A DNA stretch of 64,000 nt from an uncultured Actinomycetes bacterium (GCA_963717025.1 CAVQVJ010000003.1:964969-1028968), one strand, 5' to 3'. Counted from the first letter of the stretch, positions 35,205 through 55,370 are shown. The notes: a model not told the origin generated them from the sequence alone. Numbers and translations: made by a program.

Positions 35205-35218
35205 TTCACCGGGGTGAA
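35205..35218. promoter_or_regulatory. Palindrome site 1: TTCACCGGGGTGAA
   Basis: One central mismatch to TTCACCCGGGTGAA. It lies in the gap between two convergent gene ends (35065 and 35276). GGGATC box at 35231. Confidence 0.5.
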
Positions 35219-35275
35219 CGGCTAGGCGATGGGATCACGCCGAGGATGACGAACCGCAGGTCGCGATGGTCGCGG

Positions 35276-35701
35276 CTACTCGAGGTCGCAGTCGTCCGGA
35301 GCGGCGGCTTCGAGTGTCTCCCAGGCGGTGACGGCGGCGCTCACGGACGCGCCGATCGCGGCCAGCGACTCACTGGTCAGCTCGTCTTGCGCGGAAGCCG
35401 TCTCGACGTCGGCGACGATGTCCTCCACGCTCGCCTTGAGCGTGTCGATCTCCGTACCCAGGTCCTCTTCTACGACGGCCTGCGCCTCATTGGCGTCGGT
35501 GAGGACCTGGTTCGCCGCTTCATCGAGCTCTGCGACAGTCGTGTCGTCGAGCTCGATGTCCTGGAGACTCTGAACCGAGCCCTGAAGATCCTGCAGGCTC
35601 TGACAGACCTCGGACTCCTCGCCTCCGCAGCCGACGCCGAGCACGAGCATGGCGAAGGCTGCGGCCACCAGAAGCAGGGAGCGGTTCACGCCGCACATCA
35701 T
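35276..35701 (-). CDS. Lipoprotein, acidic helical (141 aa)
   Basis: ATG 35701 (MMCGVNRSLLLVAAAFAMLVLGVGCGGEE..). Lipobox LGVGC. The remainder is acidic and coiled-coil-like. The longer track ORF upstream is unsupported. Confidence 0.65.
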   Translation of the reverse strand: MMCGVNRSLLLVAAAFAMLVLGVGCGGEESEVCQSLQDLQGSVQSLQDIELDDTTVAELDEAANQVLTDANEAQAVVEEDLGTEIDTLKASVEDIVADVETASAQDELTSESLAAIGASVSAAVTAWETLEAAAPDDCDLE

Positions 35702-35740
35702 CCTCACCGAGGACAGCGTCGGCCTCACCCGCTGACCGGT

Positions 35741-35754
35741 TTCACCCGGGTGAA
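35741..35754. promoter_or_regulatory. Palindrome site 2: TTCACCCGGGTGAA (perfect)
   Basis: Divergent gap, 40 nt from the lipoprotein start and 95 nt before the small ORF at 35849. GGGTGT box at 35765. Confidence 0.6.
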
Positions 35755-35848
35755 CATCCAGGTCGGGTGTTTCCTCGTCGAGCCGCGAGCGCCAGTGTCT
35801 CGAAGCGTGATCTAGCCCCCGATCTGCCGGGCGACGAAAGGAGAAACG

Positions 35849-36022
35849 ATGTGGTGGTTCATCGGAATTGGTGGACTCCTCGTGTACCTGATCCTGTTGT
35901 GGACGCTCGGTCTCACCACGCTGAGAAACGGACATGGCTGGATGTTCGTCTTCGGGTGCTTCTTCCCGGTGTTCTGGCTCATCGGGGCGTTCATGGCGCC
36001 GGCGAGCCAGGAGTACGCCTGA
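35849..36022 (+). CDS. Small membrane protein (57 aa), not in the ORF track
   Basis: AAAGGAGAAAC RBS then ATG: MWWFIGIGGLLVYLILLWTLGLTTLRNGHGWMFVFGCFFPVFWLIGAFMAPASQEYA. Two hydrophobic helices. Confidence 0.55.
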   Translation: MWWFIGIGGLLVYLILLWTLGLTTLRNGHGWMFVFGCFFPVFWLIGAFMAPASQEYA

Positions 36023-52633: not shown

Positions 52634-52660
52634 GAGTTAGAGCGGCGGCCGCACCGCGCA

Positions 52661-54493
52661 TCAGGTGGCGAGCGGGAGGCTTCCTCGGACGGTCGTGCCG
52701 CGCTCGTGCACGGAGTCGACGGAGAGCGTGCCTCCGATACCGGCCATGCGGTCGGTCATGTTCGTGTAGCCGTTGCCCGACCCGCGGGCCGACTCGACGT
52801 CGTAGCCCGCGCCGTCGTCGGCGATCTCGAACTCGAGCCGGCCATCGCGCTCCCGGAGCCGAACCACCGCGGTCGCACCTGAGCCGGCGTGCTTGGCGGC
52901 GTTCTGGAGACTTTCCAGGCAGCAGAAGTAGACGGCGGCCTCCACGTCCTCTGGATAGCGGCCGATCGCTGGTGCCTCGAGCCTTGCCGGTGGAGCCGAA
53001 CGCCGTACGACGCTGGCCAGAGCCTCCCGGAGCCCGAACTCGCGAAGCACAGCCGGGTAGAGGCCTTGGGCGAGGTCGCGGAGCTCCTCCAGAATCTCGT
53101 CTAGCTCTTTGCCGACGTCGTCGAGCCGCTGTGCGACCTCTGGATCGGCGAATTCGCGTGCCAGGCCGACCTTGTAGCTGACTGCGACCAGGTGTTGCTG
53201 CGCTCCGTCATGGAGGTCGCGCTCGATCTTGCGGCGCTCGTCGTCGCCCGTGGCCACGATGCGTGCACGCGCTGCGCGGAGCTCGGTGCTCGTCGACGCG
53301 AGCTCGACCGTCAAGCGACCGTTCTCGATCGCCAGCAGCAGCGCCTGGCCCGCGGCTGCGACGAGCTCCGGGTCGGTGTCCAAAGCCGCGTCATGCACGA
53401 TCACGGCCGCGGGCTCGCCCTTCCGCGTGACCAGAGTCGACGACTGGCCGGCCGGAGGCGTGGATGCAAGAGGCTTGCCGCTCGAGTCGACAAAGCCGCC
53501 TGCCTCCTCGAGACGGAACCCGAGCTCGAGCGACGGATCATCGAGTGCATCGGCCAAAATCGTGCGCAGCTCAGAGGCGCTGGGGCTCTCTACCAGGCGG
53601 GCGACGATCTTTTTCAACGCCGTCGCGGCGAAGAACGTGCTCACCACGATCGAAAGCACAAATCCGTAAGGAAGCAGGGCGCGACCAACCGAGAGGAACC
53701 AGCCGACGTCCGAGATCGTGCTCGGATCCAGATCGAGATGGTGGGTGACGACGCCGTGGAAGATCAGGACGGGCACCGTGAGTATCACGGCTGGTACGTA
53801 GACGGGAATGAGCGCGCGCCTGCGCGGTCGAGTTGCCGTCGCCAGGCGGTAGGACAAGACAGCGAGAGTCGCCGCTCCGACCGCGATCGCCACGTACGAA
53901 AAGTCGCTGCCGAACGGGTCGGCGATCGTCGGACGGTCGGCGATCATGAAGGCGTTCGTGGGACACGCGGCGTTGCAGCCAGCGATCGGCCCGCCGCCGC
54001 TCACGACGGGCGAGAAGAGAAGCGAAGGGAAGAACGGCAAGAACCAGAGCACCCAGCCCGCGAGCAGCAGCCGCTCCAGCCAGCCGCCAAGCCGTCCGTC
54101 GGGGAAGGCGAAGATGACATAGAAGGCCAGGACGAACGACGGGAAGTCACCGAACACACCGATGCTGTGGAGCAGGGGATCGGACGCCCCTTGCAGCGAC
54201 ATGACGACCGACGCAAGCGCCAGCGCCACGAACGCGAGGCCGAGGCGATTGCCGGGACGTCGAACCAGCCAGTACAGCGCGGCGCTGGACCATCCCACGA
54301 TGATCACGGCCCGCTGGATGCCGTACGCAATCGGATCGACGAGGTGGTCGCTCGTCGCGAGCAGCAGACCCGCTCCGATCGCGACGAGAAGCCACCCGAT
54401 CGCAAGCGCGGTCAGGACGCCGCGTCGAGCAAGGATCGTCGAGACCGTAGCCCCTGCTGAAGCGGGTGCACGCGCTGCTACGGCTGTGGACAC
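52661..54493 (-). CDS. Sensor histidine kinase (HisKA_3/NarX-DesK type) with a large polytopic N-terminal membrane domain
   Basis: 610 aa. About 8-9 TM helices, then ERRKIERDLHDGAQQHLVA (H-box) and the HATPase region (NAAKHAG..., DDGAGY..., GYTNMTDRMAGIGGTL). Confidence 0.85.
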   Translation of the reverse strand: MSTAVAARAPASAGATVSTILARRGVLTALAIGWLLVAIGAGLLLATSDHLVDPIAYGIQRAVIIVGWSSAALYWLVRRPGNRLGLAFVALALASVVMSLQGASDPLLHSIGVFGDFPSFVLAFYVIFAFPDGRLGGWLERLLLAGWVLWFLPFFPSLLFSPVVSGGGPIAGCNAACPTNAFMIADRPTIADPFGSDFSYVAIAVGAATLAVLSYRLATATRPRRRALIPVYVPAVILTVPVLIFHGVVTHHLDLDPSTISDVGWFLSVGRALLPYGFVLSIVVSTFFAATALKKIVARLVESPSASELRTILADALDDPSLELGFRLEEAGGFVDSSGKPLASTPPAGQSSTLVTRKGEPAAVIVHDAALDTDPELVAAAGQALLLAIENGRLTVELASTSTELRAARARIVATGDDERRKIERDLHDGAQQHLVAVSYKVGLAREFADPEVAQRLDDVGKELDEILEELRDLAQGLYPAVLREFGLREALASVVRRSAPPARLEAPAIGRYPEDVEAAVYFCCLESLQNAAKHAGSGATAVVRLRERDGRLEFEIADDGAGYDVESARGSGNGYTNMTDRMAGIGGTLSVDSVHERGTTVRGSLPLAT

Positions 54494-54624
54494 ACCAACC
54501 CTCCTTCGGACTTCGAGGCAGCTGTTGCTATTTAGCCACGATCACCGCGCTCTGTCTACTCGGCCGGGTGACCTTCTCCACTCCGTCACATTGTCGTCTT
54601 CCGATCCGCTCTATTGTGTCTCGC

Positions 54625-55323
54625 ATGGCGATTCGAGTCGCCATTGCGGACGACAGCGCTTTGGTCCGGGAGGGGCTGCAGCAGCTCCTCGCCGCTCACC
54701 AGAGCATCGAGGTCGTGGCTGCGTGCGACGACATGCCGTCGCTCCTCCAGGCCGTGGAGACCGTCCAGCCCGACGTGGTGGTGAGCGACATTCGAATGCC
54801 GCCCTCGAGAACCGACGAGGGCATCCAGATTGCAGTCCGCCTCCGGCAGCTCCATCCTGACATCGGAGTGGTCATCCTCAGCCAGTACACGGAGCCGAGG
54901 TATGCGCTGAAGCTCTTCGAGAGCGGCTCCGAGGGGCGCGCATACCTGCTCAAGGAGCGCGTGCGTGACTCCGAGCAGCTCGTGGCAGTCATCGAGTCCG
55001 TCGCCACCGGTGGATCGGTCATCGATCCCAAGGTCGTCGACGTGCTCGTGACCGCCAGGGCTCGCCCCTCGCCCGCGCTCGCCAAGCTCACCCCACGCGA
55101 GCGGGACGTCCTTGCCGAGATCGCCCAGGGAAAGAGCAACACGGCAATCGCCAAGTCTCTCGTGCTCAGCAAACGAGCCGTCGAGAAGCACATCCACTCG
55201 ATCTTCTTCAAGCTCGGTCTTTCCGAGGCGGAGGACGTCAGCAAGCGCGTGAAAGCGGCCCTGCTCCTTCTCGCCGAGGAAGGCACGGATGTGGGCGAGA
55301 GGGGACGCTCAGCAGCAGGGTAA
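54625..55323 (+). CDS. NarL/FixJ-family response regulator (REC plus LuxR HTH)
   Basis: ATG 54625 (MAIRVAIADDSALVREGL...VVVSDIRMPP...). C-terminal LTPRERDVLAEIAQGKSNTAIAKSLVLSKRAVEKHIHSIF. Divergent from the kinase gene. Confidence 0.85.
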   Translation: MAIRVAIADDSALVREGLQQLLAAHQSIEVVAACDDMPSLLQAVETVQPDVVVSDIRMPPSRTDEGIQIAVRLRQLHPDIGVVILSQYTEPRYALKLFESGSEGRAYLLKERVRDSEQLVAVIESVATGGSVIDPKVVDVLVTARARPSPALAKLTPRERDVLAEIAQGKSNTAIAKSLVLSKRAVEKHIHSIFFKLGLSEAEDVSKRVKAALLLLAEEGTDVGERGRSAAG

Positions 55324-55356
55324 GTCCGGCGAGTGCTCGAGACGGCGACGCGCCTC

Positions 55357-55370
55357 TTCACCCAGGTGAA
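55357..55370. promoter_or_regulatory. Palindrome site 7: TTCACCCAGGTGAA
   Basis: 34 nt after the response-regulator stop and 62 nt before the ORF at 55432. GCGGGTGATGTG box at 55379..55390, an identical 12-mer to site 4. Confidence 0.6.

What the first reader, a model, noticed from the sequence alone, without database searches (positions are those of the whole stretch)
35205..55370. Seven intergenic copies of the palindrome TTCACC-N2-GGTGAA tie a 20-kb block of stress and membrane genes into a putative regulon
The seven copies I found are:
- Perfect TTCACCCGGGTGAA at 35741, 45027 and 46366.
- Changes only in the central dinucleotide at 35205 (GG), 51136 (TG) and 55357 (CA).
- One arm mismatch at 37580.

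A specific 14-mer is expected far less than once in 64 kb (4^14 is about 2.7e8), so this is not chance. All seven lie outside my CDS calls.

Six of the seven sit 62-113 nt upstream of a plus-strand start (35849, 37709, 45122, 46453, 51240, 55432). Four of those also lie 40-196 nt upstream of a divergent minus-strand gene: the lipoprotein, the CPA1 antiporter, the DUF1269-sulfatase fusion and the STAND LuxR regulator.

The flanked genes form a coherent set:
- small TM proteins
- a DedA-YihY-SulP operon
- DUF1269-like proteins
- a SHOCT-SnoaL-GNAT-PRMT-like operon
- a DUF7144-like gene and a CYTH-like gene
- a coiled-coil protein and the FGE fusion

Three candidate cognate DNA-binding proteins are encoded inside the block: the NarL-type response regulator at 54625 with its kinase at 52661, and the STAND LuxR regulator at 48661. 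I do not recognise this operator from any characterised regulator. I scanned by eye, so further copies may exist.
Basis: partly seen in the sequence, partly recalled or inferred. Interest (0 to 1): 0.8.

Follow-up and report, generated by a model that had tools for sequence, protein, structure and literature searches.

The report
MalT-like activator promoters of a stress island
The seven palindromes are real and mark about ten co-regulated promoters in a 20-kb block of membrane and stress genes, most likely switched on by the MalT-like regulator encoded in the block; this is a new variant of a regulon type already described in Actinoplanes.

Summary
There are six exact copies of TTCACC-N2-GGTGAA and one copy with one mismatch. 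All lie at 35205-55370 and all are intergenic (expected by chance 0.01).

The palindrome is only part of a larger promoter. A box GGGYGATG lies about 10 nt away on each side where a gene starts. A -10 hexamer (NANNNT) follows 22 nt after the box. This puts the box at -40 to -33 and the palindrome centre at about -57.5. Three divergent intergenic regions carry a box on both sides, giving about ten promoters in all.

The composite is conserved at matching positions in related uncultured Thermoleophilia-type genomes. It also occurs in Mycobacterium, Actinomycetospora and Egibacteraceae.

Across lineages it follows homologues of the block's MalT-like STAND LuxR regulator (48661-50940, minus strand). 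It does not follow the NarL-type response regulator.

Box sequence, box position and gene content (SHOCT, DUF1269, YihY) match the published MalT-activated "MRLGR" region of Actinoplanes sp. SE50/110. The arrangement of the boxes differs.

Verdict: a real regulon and a new variant of a known kind. Binding and the inducing signal are untested.

The parts
35205..35218 (.). Palindrome TTCACCGGGGTGAA (distal site). It has a box only on the minus side, so the target is orphan or antisense.
35741..35754 (.). Palindrome TTCACCCGGGTGAA shared by two divergent promoters: lipoprotein (minus) and a small membrane protein (plus).
37580..37593 (.). Palindrome TTCACCCGGGTGAG (one mismatch) shared by the CPA1 gene (minus) and the DedA-YihY-SulP operon (plus).
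45027..45040 (.). Palindrome TTCACCCGGGTGAA shared by the DUF1269-sulfatase gene (minus) and the 45122/45300/45575 operon (plus).
46366..46379 (+). Palindrome upstream of the SHOCT-SnoaL-GNAT-methyltransferase operon.
51136..51149 (+). Palindrome TTCACCTGGGTGAA upstream of the DUF7144 gene. There is no box on the STAND side.
55357..55370 (+). Palindrome TTCACCCAGGTGAA upstream of the 55432 gene and the FGE-fusion operon.
35765..35772 (+). Proximal box GGGTGTTT; predicted -10 CAGTGT at 35793-35798; predicted transcription start about 35805.
37604..37611 (+). Proximal box GGGCGATG; predicted -10 TAGCAT at 37632-37637; predicted transcription start about 37644.
45051..45058 (+). Proximal box GGGTGATG; predicted -10 GAGTCT at 45079-45084; predicted transcription start about 45091.
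46392..46399 (+). Proximal box GGGTGGAC (weak, gap of 12); predicted -10 TATCGT at 46418-46423; predicted transcription start about 46430.
51159..51166 (+). Proximal box GGGTGAGG; predicted -10 GACAAT at 51187-51192; predicted transcription start about 51199.
55381..55388 (+). Proximal box GGGTGATG; predicted -10 GACACT at 55410-55415; predicted transcription start about 55422.
35188..35195 (-). Proximal box GGGTGGAG (weak); predicted -10 GAGACT at 35161-35166; predicted transcription start about 35154. No convincing gene follows; the transcript would run antisense to the 3' end of the cyclase gene.
35723..35730 (-). Proximal box GGGTGAGG; predicted -10 GATGAT at 35697-35702; predicted transcription start about 35690. 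This coincides with GTG 35689 of the lipoprotein gene, so the transcript is probably leaderless.
37563..37570 (-). Proximal box GGGCGATG; predicted -10 TAACGT at 37537-37542; predicted transcription start about 37530, toward CPA1.
45010..45017 (-). Proximal box GGGCGATG; predicted -10 CATGGT at 44984-44989; predicted transcription start about 44977, toward DUF1269-sulfatase.
48661..50940 (-). MalT-like STAND/LAL regulator (P-loop NOD, repeat sensor, C-terminal GerE helix-turn-helix). Proposed cognate activator.
52661..54493 (-). HisKA_3 histidine kinase with about 8 N-terminal membrane segments. A conserved neighbour, not preceded by the composite.
54625..55323 (+). NarL-type response regulator. 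Rival candidate regulator; not preceded by the composite.
35276..35701 (-). Target: lipoprotein (signal peptide with lipobox LGVGC).
35849..36022 (+). Target: 57-aa membrane protein.
36174..37499 (-). Target: CPA1 Na+/H+ exchanger.
37706..41126 (+). Target operon: DedA/VTT (37706-38485), YihY/BrkB (38482-39375), SulP-STAS (39372-41126).
41229..44928 (-). Target: DUF1269-sulfatase fusion (42025-44928), probably with the downstream SnoaL gene (41229-41990).
45122..46132 (+). Target operon: 55-aa membrane protein, an 86-aa conserved small protein (the 45300 family, which lies next to STAND genes in many lineages) and a 185-aa protein.
46453..48621 (+). Target operon: SHOCT, SnoaL, GNAT and a PRMT-like methyltransferase.
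51240..52633 (+). Target: DUF7144 membrane protein (51240-51680), possibly with the 51857-52633 gene.
55432..57902 (+). Target operon: 143-aa membrane/coiled-coil protein and a coiled-coil-FGE (sulfatase-maturing enzyme) fusion.

Best explanation
Each palindrome is the distal part of an activator-dependent promoter.

Anatomy:
- Two abutting inverted half-sites, TTCACCC|GGGTGAA, lie at about -64 to -51 (centre about -57.5).
- A third half-site-like box, GGGYGA(TG), follows about 10 bp later at -40 to -33. It overlaps a degenerate -35.
- An ordinary -10 hexamer (T/N)ANNNT lies 22 bp after GGGYGA.
- Because the distal site is symmetric, one palindrome can serve two divergent promoters when a box and a -10 are present on both sides. 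The predicted transcription starts are then about 114 bp apart.

Proposed mechanism (inferred, not shown):
- The MalT-like STAND regulator encoded at 48661-50940 binds ATP and an unknown inducer and forms a multimer.
- Its GerE-type DNA-binding domains occupy the boxes cooperatively: a dimer on the palindrome and a further protomer on the proximal box.
- The complex recruits RNA polymerase, as E. coli MalT and Actinoplanes MalT do.

The output is co-induction of about ten transcription units. These encode small membrane proteins, DUF7144, SHOCT, DUF1269, DedA, YihY, SulP and CPA1 proteins, and a sulfatase with its maturation enzyme.

Shown here: the anatomy, its conservation, and its co-occurrence with the STAND gene. 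Inferred: transcription starts, binding, activation rather than repression, and the signal.
For: 1. Anatomy. In 71 non-identical sites anchored on the box, the consensus is GGGYGATG. A is found at box+29 in 43/71 sites and T at box+33 in 42/71, against a background of 16% each.
2. Control. 29/34 family sites have ANNNT at that offset. Only 4/59 chance matches of the same pattern in other high-GC genomes do.
3. Direction. In the window, boxes occur on 10 sides, and 9 of these face a gene start. Three of the four box-less sides face no gene start.
4. A predicted transcription start (about 35690) coincides with the GTG start (35689) of the lipoprotein signal peptide.
5. Conservation. Palindrome, box and -10 are kept upstream of the orthologous DUF7144, 45300-family, SHOCT and 55432-family genes in L001-L003, L031, L062, L068, L078, L121, L124 and L207-L210, while the surrounding intergenic sequence diverges.
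6. The regulator is a true MalT relative. Against the E. coli MalT NOD (PDB 8bob) E = 9.5e-51, with Walker A and B motifs kept. NCBIfam MalT scores 339 bits. The domains are AAA_16 plus GerE, and WHD_MalT/TPR_MalT in orthologues.
7. Co-occurrence, searching from the motif. STAND homologues (37-40% identity) lie within 8 kb of the composite in Egibacteraceae L007, Mycobacterium L056, MAG L061 and Actinomycetospora L088, with no response-regulator orthologue in those stretches.
8. Co-occurrence, searching from the STAND gene:
   - M. intracellulare L126 has four sites with core TCACCCGGGTGA downstream of the STAND orthologue and no kinase or response regulator in 22 kb.
   - In 80 metagenome loci (715 kb) found with a STAND profile there are 18 exact TCACCNNGGTGA, against my rough composition-based estimate of about 0.7.
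   - Most lie within about 15-150 bp of the STAND gene, and only one of the 80 loci has a response-regulator orthologue.
9. Co-occurrence, searching from the response regulator. Eight loci with both the response regulator and STAND all have palindromes. Two loci with the response regulator (67% identity) but no STAND have none in 20.7 kb each, although they carry SHOCT, DUF7144, AI-2E and M48 genes.
10. Precedent. Actinoplanes MalT (ACSP50_3915) activates a 51-gene region through TCATCC-N5-GGATGA overlapping the -35, with its 3' end 34.4 +/- 1 nt from the mapped transcription start. That region holds SHOCT, three DUF1269, two YihY/BrkB and two MalT-like genes (PMC7567727). Here the last A of GGGYGA lies 35 nt from the predicted start.
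11. The E. coli MalT box core is GGA(T/G)GA (PMC7567727, PMC9628970). MalT multimers bind boxes cooperatively and recruit RNA polymerase (PMC4381067).
12. The STAND recognition helix is conserved from the window (SFNTIHSHTKSIYQKL) to Mycobacterium (SLNTVKTHQRALYRKL), although the proteins are only about 38% identical overall. The response regulator's helix differs (SKRAVEKHIHSIFFKL).
Against: - There are no binding, transcription-start or expression data for this organism.
- In the Thermoleophilia-type genomes the STAND gene and the two-component system are always neighbours, so they cannot be separated there.
- The separation rests on distant lineages and on two syntenic, hence non-independent, loci that have the response regulator only.
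- Only 15 of 80 STAND-homologue metagenome loci carry the compact palindrome. Many of those contigs are short, and many homologues may be paralogues with other box arrangements (18 sites of TCACCC-N5-GGGTGA).
- The window's STAND gene has no composite on its own side.
- Two positions that I take, by analogy with NarL (from memory), to contact bases differ between the window's STAND (H, K) and the mycobacterial one (K, R), although the motif is the same.
- The half-site GGGTGA is also the half-site of BldM, a NarL-family response regulator.
- Site 35205 has no plausible target gene.
Confidence: 0.65

Rival explanations
1. The NarL-type response regulator (54625-55323), phosphorylated by the adjacent membrane kinase (52661-54493), binds the palindrome as a dimer and controls the regulon. 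This would resemble DosR or NarL on 6-2-6 or 7-2-7 sites, or BldM on TCACCC-N4-GGGTGA.
For: - The response regulator has REC and GerE domains, next to a HisKA_3 kinase.
- Its nearest solved relative is DevR/DosR.
- The 6-N2-6 geometry equals that of DosR and NarL sites (from memory).
- BldM, a NarL-family regulator, recognises the same half-site (cited in PMC8914203).
- The kinase and regulator pair is conserved inside the block in all close relatives.
- In L068 the regulator gene lies in an operon behind a composite.
Against: - The motif occurs with STAND homologues but without a response-regulator or kinase orthologue in M. intracellulare (22 kb), in L007, L056, L061 and L088, and in 14 of the 15 motif-bearing metagenome loci.
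- Two loci with a 67%-identical response regulator but no STAND have no palindrome.
- There is no site in the kinase-regulator intergenic region of the window.
- The recognition helix is unlike that of the MalT group.
- The BldM spacing (N4) is absent from the window.
Confidence: 0.15
2. Control is shared. The response-regulator dimer occupies the compact palindrome at -57.5, while the STAND protein occupies the proximal box at -37.5, or the two compete for the same GGGTGA half-sites. Two signals would then be integrated at each promoter.
For: - Both proteins carry GerE-type helix-turn-helix domains, and both are conserved in the block in all the response-regulator-first loci that also carry STAND.
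- Palindrome half-sites (GGGTGAA) and the proximal box (GGGYGATG) differ slightly.
- In L146 and L164, promoters of the 6-N5-6 type coexist with compact palindromes.
Against: - The full composite, palindrome plus box, is present in lineages where no response-regulator orthologue is nearby.
- The differences between box and half-site are explained by overlap with the -35 hexamer.
Confidence: 0.1
3. The composite is the -35/-10 of an alternative sigma factor. This could be a SigB/SigF-type sigma recognising GGGTAT-like -10 elements, or an ECF sigma. No separate activator would be needed.
For: - GGGYGA resembles the GGGTAT -10 of SigB/SigF-type promoters (from memory).
- In L007 and L027 the downstream gene is an ECF sigma factor, and in L064 it is a STAS anti-sigma antagonist.
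Against: - Perfect dyad symmetry is kept even at one-directional promoters.
- A canonical NANNNT -10 lies 22 nt downstream of the box.
- One palindrome serves both directions.
- No sigma factor gene was recognised among the genes I scanned in the block.
- The gap between palindrome and box (10 nt) does not fit sigma spacers.
Confidence: 0.03
4. The copies are a dispersed REP/MITE-like repeat or a chance cluster with no regulatory role.
For: Short GC-rich palindromes can be repetitive extragenic elements.
Against: - Only 14 bp plus the box are shared, and the flanks are unrelated.
- All copies are intergenic, at fixed distances from gene starts.
- They are conserved upstream of orthologues.
- The chance expectation is 0.01.
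- A 6-bp stem with a 2-nt loop cannot form an RNA hairpin.
Confidence: 0.01

Closest known systems
MalT (ACSP50_3915) and the 'maltose-regulated large genomic region' of Actinoplanes sp. SE50/110 (Droste et al. 2020, PMC7567727)
   Same: - An actinobacterial MalT-like LuxR/STAND regulator is encoded inside a large block of poorly annotated membrane and stress genes.
- A palindromic GGNTGA-type motif sits at many promoters of the block.
- The half-site nearest the promoter ends about 35 nt from the transcription start and overlaps the -35.
- The blocks share gene families: SHOCT, DUF1269, YihY/BrkB. AI-2E, M48 and DUF2252 occur in relatives.
- Gene order is shuffled between species while the motif persists.
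- No maltose-utilisation genes are involved.
   Different: - The half-site is GGGTGA, not GGATGA.
- The arrangement is an abutting inverted pair at about -57.5 plus a single proximal box, instead of one 6-N5-6 palindrome over the -35. No 6-N5-6 copy exists in the window.
- One palindrome is shared by two divergent promoters.
- The lineages differ (Thermoleophilia-type MAG; also Mycobacterium).
- A two-component system is embedded in the block.
- Orthology of the two regulators was not tested.
E. coli / Klebsiella MalT and MalT boxes
   Same: - A STAND ATPase with a GerE-type DNA-binding domain; the NOD is homologous (E = 9.5e-51).
- A hexamer box GGA(T/G)GA versus GGGYGA.
- Several boxes per promoter, bound cooperatively by a multimer (PMC4381067).
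- A proximal box overlaps the -35.
   Different: - It is not the E. coli equivalog (339 bits against a cutoff of 537).
- The distal boxes here are an abutting inverted pair; in E. coli they are direct repeats (from memory).
- The targets are not mal genes.
- The inducer is unknown.
BldM box of Streptomyces (TCACcCgnncGgGTGA; Al-Bassam et al. 2014, as cited in PMC8914203)
   Same: - Identical half-sites TCACCC / GGGTGA in inverted orientation.
- Bound by a GerE-type helix-turn-helix dimer.
   Different: - The spacing is N4, against N0 here.
- BldM is an orphan NarL-family response regulator that controls development.
- No proximal box or -10 architecture has been described for it.
DosR/DevR and NarL (7-2-7) operators
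   Same: - Inverted hexamers or heptamers separated by 2 bp and bound by a GerE-domain dimer (from memory).
- The block's response regulator is most similar to DevR among solved structures.
   Different: - The half-site sequences are unrelated (GGGACT; TACYYMT).
- The motif here does not follow the response regulator across lineages.

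Membership tests
MalT/LAL-type STAND activator regulon (MalT-box promoters) | Regulator with a P-loop NOD, an arm/winged helix, a repeat sensor and a C-terminal GerE helix-turn-helix | tested here: met
   Pfam AAA_16 and GerE. WHD_MalT and TPR_MalT in orthologues. PDB 8bob MalT E = 9.5e-51 with GxGKT and DD motifs.
MalT/LAL-type STAND activator regulon (MalT-box promoters) | Equivalog of E. coli MalT | tested here: not met
   NCBIfam PRK04841 scores 339 bits, below its 537-bit cutoff. 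No mal genes were found in the block.
MalT/LAL-type STAND activator regulon (MalT-box promoters) | Hexamer boxes of the GGA(T/G)GA type, several per promoter | tested here: met
   GGGYGA appears three times per one-directional promoter and four times per divergent pair. It differs from the E. coli core by one base.
MalT/LAL-type STAND activator regulon (MalT-box promoters) | Proximal box overlapping the -35, about 35 nt from the transcription start | tested here: met
   Met with predicted starts only. The -10 signal NANNNT lies at box+28..33, which places the end of GGGYGA at -35. Actinoplanes gives 34.4 +/- 1 nt. No transcription-start data exist here.
MalT/LAL-type STAND activator regulon (MalT-box promoters) | Motif co-occurs with the regulator gene across genomes | tested here: met
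MalT/LAL-type STAND activator regulon (MalT-box promoters) | The regulator binds the boxes and activates transcription in an ATP- and inducer-dependent way | not testable with these tools
   Needs EMSA, footprinting, reporter assays or deletion mutants.
Actinoplanes MRLGR-type region | Palindrome TCATCC-N5-GGATGA | tested here: not met
   No copy of TCAYCC-N5-GGRTGA in the window, even with one mismatch allowed. Two copies next to STAND homologues in metagenome loci L158 and L162.
Actinoplanes MRLGR-type region | Shared gene families around a MalT-like regulator | tested here: met
   SHOCT, DUF1269 and YihY/BrkB occur in both regions. DUF2252, AI-2E and M48 occur in relatives.
NarL/DosR-type two-component regulon | REC-GerE regulator with an adjacent HisKA_3 kinase | tested here: met
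NarL/DosR-type two-component regulon | Operator follows the response regulator across genomes | tested here: not met
   No palindrome in L125 or L211, which have the response regulator at 67% identity but no STAND gene. The motif occurs without the response regulator in L126, L007, L056, L061, L088 and 14 metagenome loci.
NarL/DosR-type two-component regulon | Operator in the regulator's own promoter (autoregulation) | tested here: not met
   No site in 54494-54624. Autoregulation is not obligatory for this family.
BldM regulon | 16-bp palindrome TCACCC-N4-GGGTGA | tested here: not met
   No matches in the window. The half-site is identical but the spacing is N0.
REP/MITE dispersed repeat | Repeat unit with conserved flanks, no fixed relation to gene starts | tested here: not met
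   Flanks are unrelated. Distances to gene starts and to the -10 are fixed.
Known RNA family | Rfam match in the block | tested here: not met
   No hits at gathering threshold in 34000-58000.

The most novel reading that the evidence does not exclude
The compact palindrome plus proximal box may be a previously undescribed promoter grammar of an ancient MalT-like STAND regulon found across the actinobacteria, from Thermoleophilia to the Mycobacterium avium complex. In this reading, one symmetric activator site drives two divergent promoters. Alternative box arrangements (6-0-6 plus box, 6-N5-6, and a four-box form) evolved together with the regulator. The core targets would be the 45300-family small protein next to the STAND gene, DUF7144, SHOCT and DUF1269, forming an uncharacterised envelope or dormancy-type stress response. 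That response may be tuned by a second GerE-type regulator (the embedded two-component system) that recognises the same GGGTGA half-site.
Probability: 0.3. Interest if true: 0.6.

Novelty: new variant of a known kind. Interest (0 to 1): 0.45.

Why it matters
**A testable regulon for proteins of unknown function.** The result gives a concrete regulon and promoter architecture for a set of widespread protein families with no known role: DUF7144, SHOCT, DUF1269, the 45300-family small protein, DedA and YihY.

**A broader MalT-like paradigm.** It extends the one experimentally studied actinobacterial MalT-like "large genomic region" (Actinoplanes) to deep-branching uncultured soil Actinomycetota and to non-tuberculous mycobacteria. 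In M. intracellulare the same sites precede redox and pentose-phosphate genes: transaldolase, a pyridine-nucleotide disulfide oxidoreductase and MsrB.

**How box arrangement can vary.** The same kind of half-site is used with different spacings in different lineages. This is useful for predicting regulons of the very large and mostly uncharacterised LAL/STAND LuxR family.

**Limits.** This is not a new kind of system, and the physiological signal remains unknown.

Tried and rejected
1. **SigB/SigF-type or ECF sigma promoter.** I first read GGGTGA as a SigB/SigF-like -10. I rejected this after finding a canonical -10 signal 22 nt downstream and boxes on both sides of some palindromes.
2. **Genome-collection scan with the composite pattern.** It could not serve as a census. 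It did provide negative controls and a few real distant hits.
3. **Exact-protein look-up of the window's DUF7144 protein.** Not on record, so the source genome itself could not be retrieved and no whole-genome motif scan was possible.
4. **Literature search for the motif string.** No relevant paper.
5. **Second palindromic motif in the response-regulator-only loci L125 and L211.** The only recurrent AT-containing palindrome (GATCA-N6-TGATC) lies in coding sequence at orthologous positions, so it is not regulatory.
6. **Isolated GGGYGA(T/G)G boxes without a palindrome in the window.** Most appear to lie inside genes; none looked like an extra promoter.
7. **Rfam on the block.** Nothing found.
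8. **Searches for DUF1269, SHOCT or DUF7144 regulons.** Nothing beyond the Actinoplanes paper, apart from the citation of the BldM motif.

Full report
**1. Observation**

The pattern TTCACCNNGGTGAA occurs six times exactly in the 64-kb window, at 35205, 35741, 45027, 46366, 51136 and 55357. Shuffles give 0.01. A seventh copy with one mismatch lies at 37580. The looser core TCACCNNGGTGA adds no further exact copy. The window is 68% G+C. Gene calls came from third-position GC and Pfam. On those calls all seven copies are intergenic, and intergenic DNA makes up only 9.5% of the block.

**2. The palindrome is part of a larger, directional element**

Aligning the flanks shows a second conserved element, GGGYGA(TG), 9-12 nt from the palindrome. 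It lies on the side where a gene starts. At the divergent intergenic regions 35741, 37580 and 45027 it is present on both sides, as CATCRCCC-N9/10-TTCACCCGGGTGAA-N10-GGGYGATG.

I collected 71 non-identical sites from the window and related loci and anchored them on the box.
- A is found at box+29 in 43/71 sites and T at box+33 in 42/71, against a 16% background for each. These are the two key bases of a -10 hexamer (T/N)ANNNT.
- 29/34 family sites have ANNNT at that offset. Only 4/59 chance matches of the same palindrome-plus-GGGTG pattern in unrelated high-GC genomes do.

With the hexamer at -12 to -7, the geometry is as follows.
- GGGYGA lies at -40 to -35.
- The trailing "ATG" overlaps a weak -35 (ATGnCn against TTGACA).
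- The palindrome spans -64 to -51, with its centre at -57.5, about two helical turns from the box centre at -37.5.

The window therefore holds about ten predicted promoters, six on the plus strand and four on the minus strand. One predicted transcription start (about 35690) coincides with GTG 35689, the start of the lipoprotein signal peptide MNRSLLLVAAAFAMLVLGVGC. This suggests a leaderless transcript and gives some independent support for the geometry. The STAND gene at 50940 has no box on its side of the 51136 site. The kinase-regulator intergenic region has no site.

**3. Conservation**

The response regulator has 66-94% identical homologues in many metagenome-assembled genomes, some labelled Gaiellaceae. 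Other matching genome records are labelled Gaiellaceae or Thermoleophilia. Loci around these homologues (L001-L003, L124, L207-L210) are syntenic but shuffled. They carry the palindrome, box and -10 upstream of the orthologous genes, while the rest of each intergenic region diverges. The orthologous genes are DUF7144, the 45300/45575 pair, SHOCT-SnoaL-GNAT, DedA-YihY, DUF1269-sulfatase and the 55432 family. In relatives the targets also include G6PD, GH15, a glycogen-debranching enzyme, LPG_synthase_TM and an ion channel.

It still recovered real-looking copies in Egibacteraceae, several Mycobacterium species, Mycolicibacter sinensis, Actinomycetospora lemnae and other MAGs. In these distant lineages the box is often followed by TCACCC, a fourth, inverted half-site.

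**4. Which regulator?**

Three GerE-type proteins are encoded in the block.

*Motif-first evidence.* STAND homologues (37-40% identity over more than half their length) lie within 8 kb of the composite in L007, L056, L061 and L088. No response-regulator orthologue lies in those stretches.

*STAND-first evidence.*
- The M. intracellulare orthologue (P0230, CP162651.1) is followed by four sites with core TCACCCGGGTGA. They lie upstream of a Csp gene, a small ORF followed by the transaldolase gene, a DUF417 gene and an SDR gene followed by MsrB. There is no kinase or response regulator in the 22 kb.
- Eighty metagenome loci (715 kb) were found with a profile of eight STAND proteins. They hold 18 exact TCACCNNGGTGA, against my rough composition-based estimate of about 0.7.
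- Those 18 sites lie in 15 loci, mostly within about 15-150 bp of the STAND gene. Several are upstream of a homologue of the 86-aa protein encoded at 45300.
- Only one of the 80 loci has a response-regulator orthologue.

*Response-regulator-first evidence.* All eight loci with both the response regulator and STAND have palindromes. The two loci with a 67%-identical response regulator but no STAND (L125, L211) have none in 20.7 kb each, even though they carry SHOCT, DUF7144, AI-2E and M48 genes. These two loci are syntenic with each other, so they count as one lineage.

*The protein.* The STAND protein is a genuine MalT relative.
- Against the E. coli MalT NOD (PDB 8bob) E = 9.5e-51, with Walker motifs intact.
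- NCBIfam MalT scores 339 bits, below the equivalog cutoff.
- Its recognition helix (S-x-N-T-I/V-K/H-T/S-H-x-K/R-x-I/L-Y-x-K-L) is conserved between the window and Mycobacterium, although overall identity is about 38%.
- The response regulator's helix differs.

I conclude that the STAND regulator is the best candidate, at about 0.65. The response regulator alone gets about 0.15, and shared control about 0.1.

**5. Comparison with known systems**

No paper in the library contains the motif string. A close analogue is published, however. In Actinoplanes sp. SE50/110 a MalT-like LuxR regulator (ACSP50_3915) activates a 51-gene "maltose-regulated large genomic region".
- It acts through TCATCC-N5-GGATGA, which overlaps the -35 at 17 mapped transcription starts. 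The 3' end of the motif lies 34.4 +/- 1 nt from the start.
- Deletion and overexpression confirmed activation.
- The region holds no maltose genes.
- It does hold SHOCT, three DUF1269 genes, two YihY/BrkB genes, AI-2E, M48 and two MalT-like regulators. Its gene order is shuffled between species (PMC7567727).

Here the last base of GGGYGA lies 35 nt from the predicted start, which is the same position. The E. coli MalT box core is GGA(T/G)GA. MalT multimers bind boxes cooperatively and recruit RNA polymerase (PMC4381067).

The STAND-first metagenome loci also contain 18 sites of TCACCC-N5-GGGTGA, the Actinoplanes geometry with the GGGTGA half-site. Their -10 signal sits at the same offset from the right half in 20 of 28 cases. 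So the proximal box of the window's composite corresponds to the right half of that palindrome.

What differs here is the half-site (GGGTGA), the arrangement (an abutting inverted pair at -57.5 plus a single proximal box) and the sharing of one palindrome by two divergent promoters. Neither the Actinoplanes spacing nor the BldM spacing occurs in the window. BldM, a NarL-family regulator, uses the same half-site with N4 spacing, and this keeps the response-regulator rival alive.

**6. Function**

The targets are mostly small membrane proteins and transporters, a sulfatase with its maturation enzyme, and in relatives genes of alpha-glucan and pentose-phosphate metabolism and redox genes. This fits a stationary-phase or envelope-stress type response. 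The Actinoplanes region rises during growth and on maltose. No signal can be assigned here. The alpha-glucan enzymes in relatives (GH15, debranching enzyme; amylase and glucosidase in Actinoplanes) make an alpha-glucan-derived inducer a reasonable guess. That is inference only.

**7. Verdict**

The regulon is real and conserved. The system is a new variant of a known kind (MalT/LAL STAND activator with MalT-type boxes), not a new class. Interest is moderate at 0.45. The promoter grammar, the wide distribution (including the M. avium complex) and the link to many families of unknown function are useful. No step of the mechanism has been shown experimentally.

Noticed in passing
window 51184-51218 (also L001 6158, L121 5300, L207 12504, L208 12503, L209 5106): An 8-bp inverted repeat, TTGGACAA-N13..20-TTGTCCAA, overlaps the predicted -10 and transcription start of the DUF7144 promoter. 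The arms are conserved in relatives, while the spacer varies in length and sequence. It may be the operator of a second regulator, or a hairpin in the 5' leader.
   Followed up: partly
window 35154-35218: The 35205 palindrome has a (weak) box and -10 only on the minus side. The predicted transcript would run antisense into the 3' end of the adenylate/guanylate cyclase gene (34265-35065). The only ORF there (34947-35159) looks non-coding. This is either an orphan or decaying site, or an antisense promoter.
   Followed up: partly
window 45300-45560; L061, L088, L133, L134, L137, L140, L156: An 85-108 aa protein family with no Pfam match (motif ..YRIxIRGEL....TVE....L.G.L.D...L.G.L..L...G..IVS.N) lies next to STAND homologues in several distant lineages. 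In L061, L134, L137 and L140 it sits directly downstream of the STAND gene, behind a composite site. It is the most widely conserved target and may be a partner or feedback factor of the regulator.
   Followed up: partly
L146 (139, 3223, 4018, 6325), L164 (3685, 4027, 5556, 6829, 13821, 16941): Some loci with STAND homologues use TCACCC-N5-GGGTGA, the Actinoplanes spacing with the GGGTGA half-site, at many promoters. They keep one compact four-box site, TCACCCGGGTGA-N11-GGGTGAnG-N5-TCACC(C/T), right after the STAND gene. L162 has a GGATGA-type palindrome between its STAND and DUF7144 genes.
   Followed up: partly
L007 5122-5930; L027 7718-8000; L064 3342-3837: In distant actinobacteria the composite precedes an ECF sigma factor gene. 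In L027 the predicted transcription start coincides with the ATG, so that transcript would be leaderless. In L064 it precedes a STAS anti-sigma antagonist. The regulon may therefore feed into sigma-factor cascades.
   Followed up: no
L003 10761-10830 and 15752-15821: Two promoters in one locus share an almost identical stretch of about 60 nt downstream of the palindrome (cgaggccggtgggcgatgt.ctgacgccgtcgtgtggcgaaactggcaagccagcat). The same stretch, GTGATGACGCC...GGCGACACTGG, is conserved at window 55381-55420 and its orthologues. This looks like a duplicated promoter and leader unit.
   Followed up: no
L001 3631-6259: The STAND orthologue in this MAG appears split. The 3' half is called as a 403-aa gene, and the 5' half is covered by a spurious opposite-strand ORF. 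This is probably a frameshift or an assembly error.
   Followed up: no
window 52661-54493: The histidine kinase has about 8 hydrophobic segments in its first 300 residues and no recognised sensor domain. In several relatives (L124, L207-L211, L125) a single-domain receiver gene lies beside the response regulator; I did not find one at that position in the window.
   Followed up: partly
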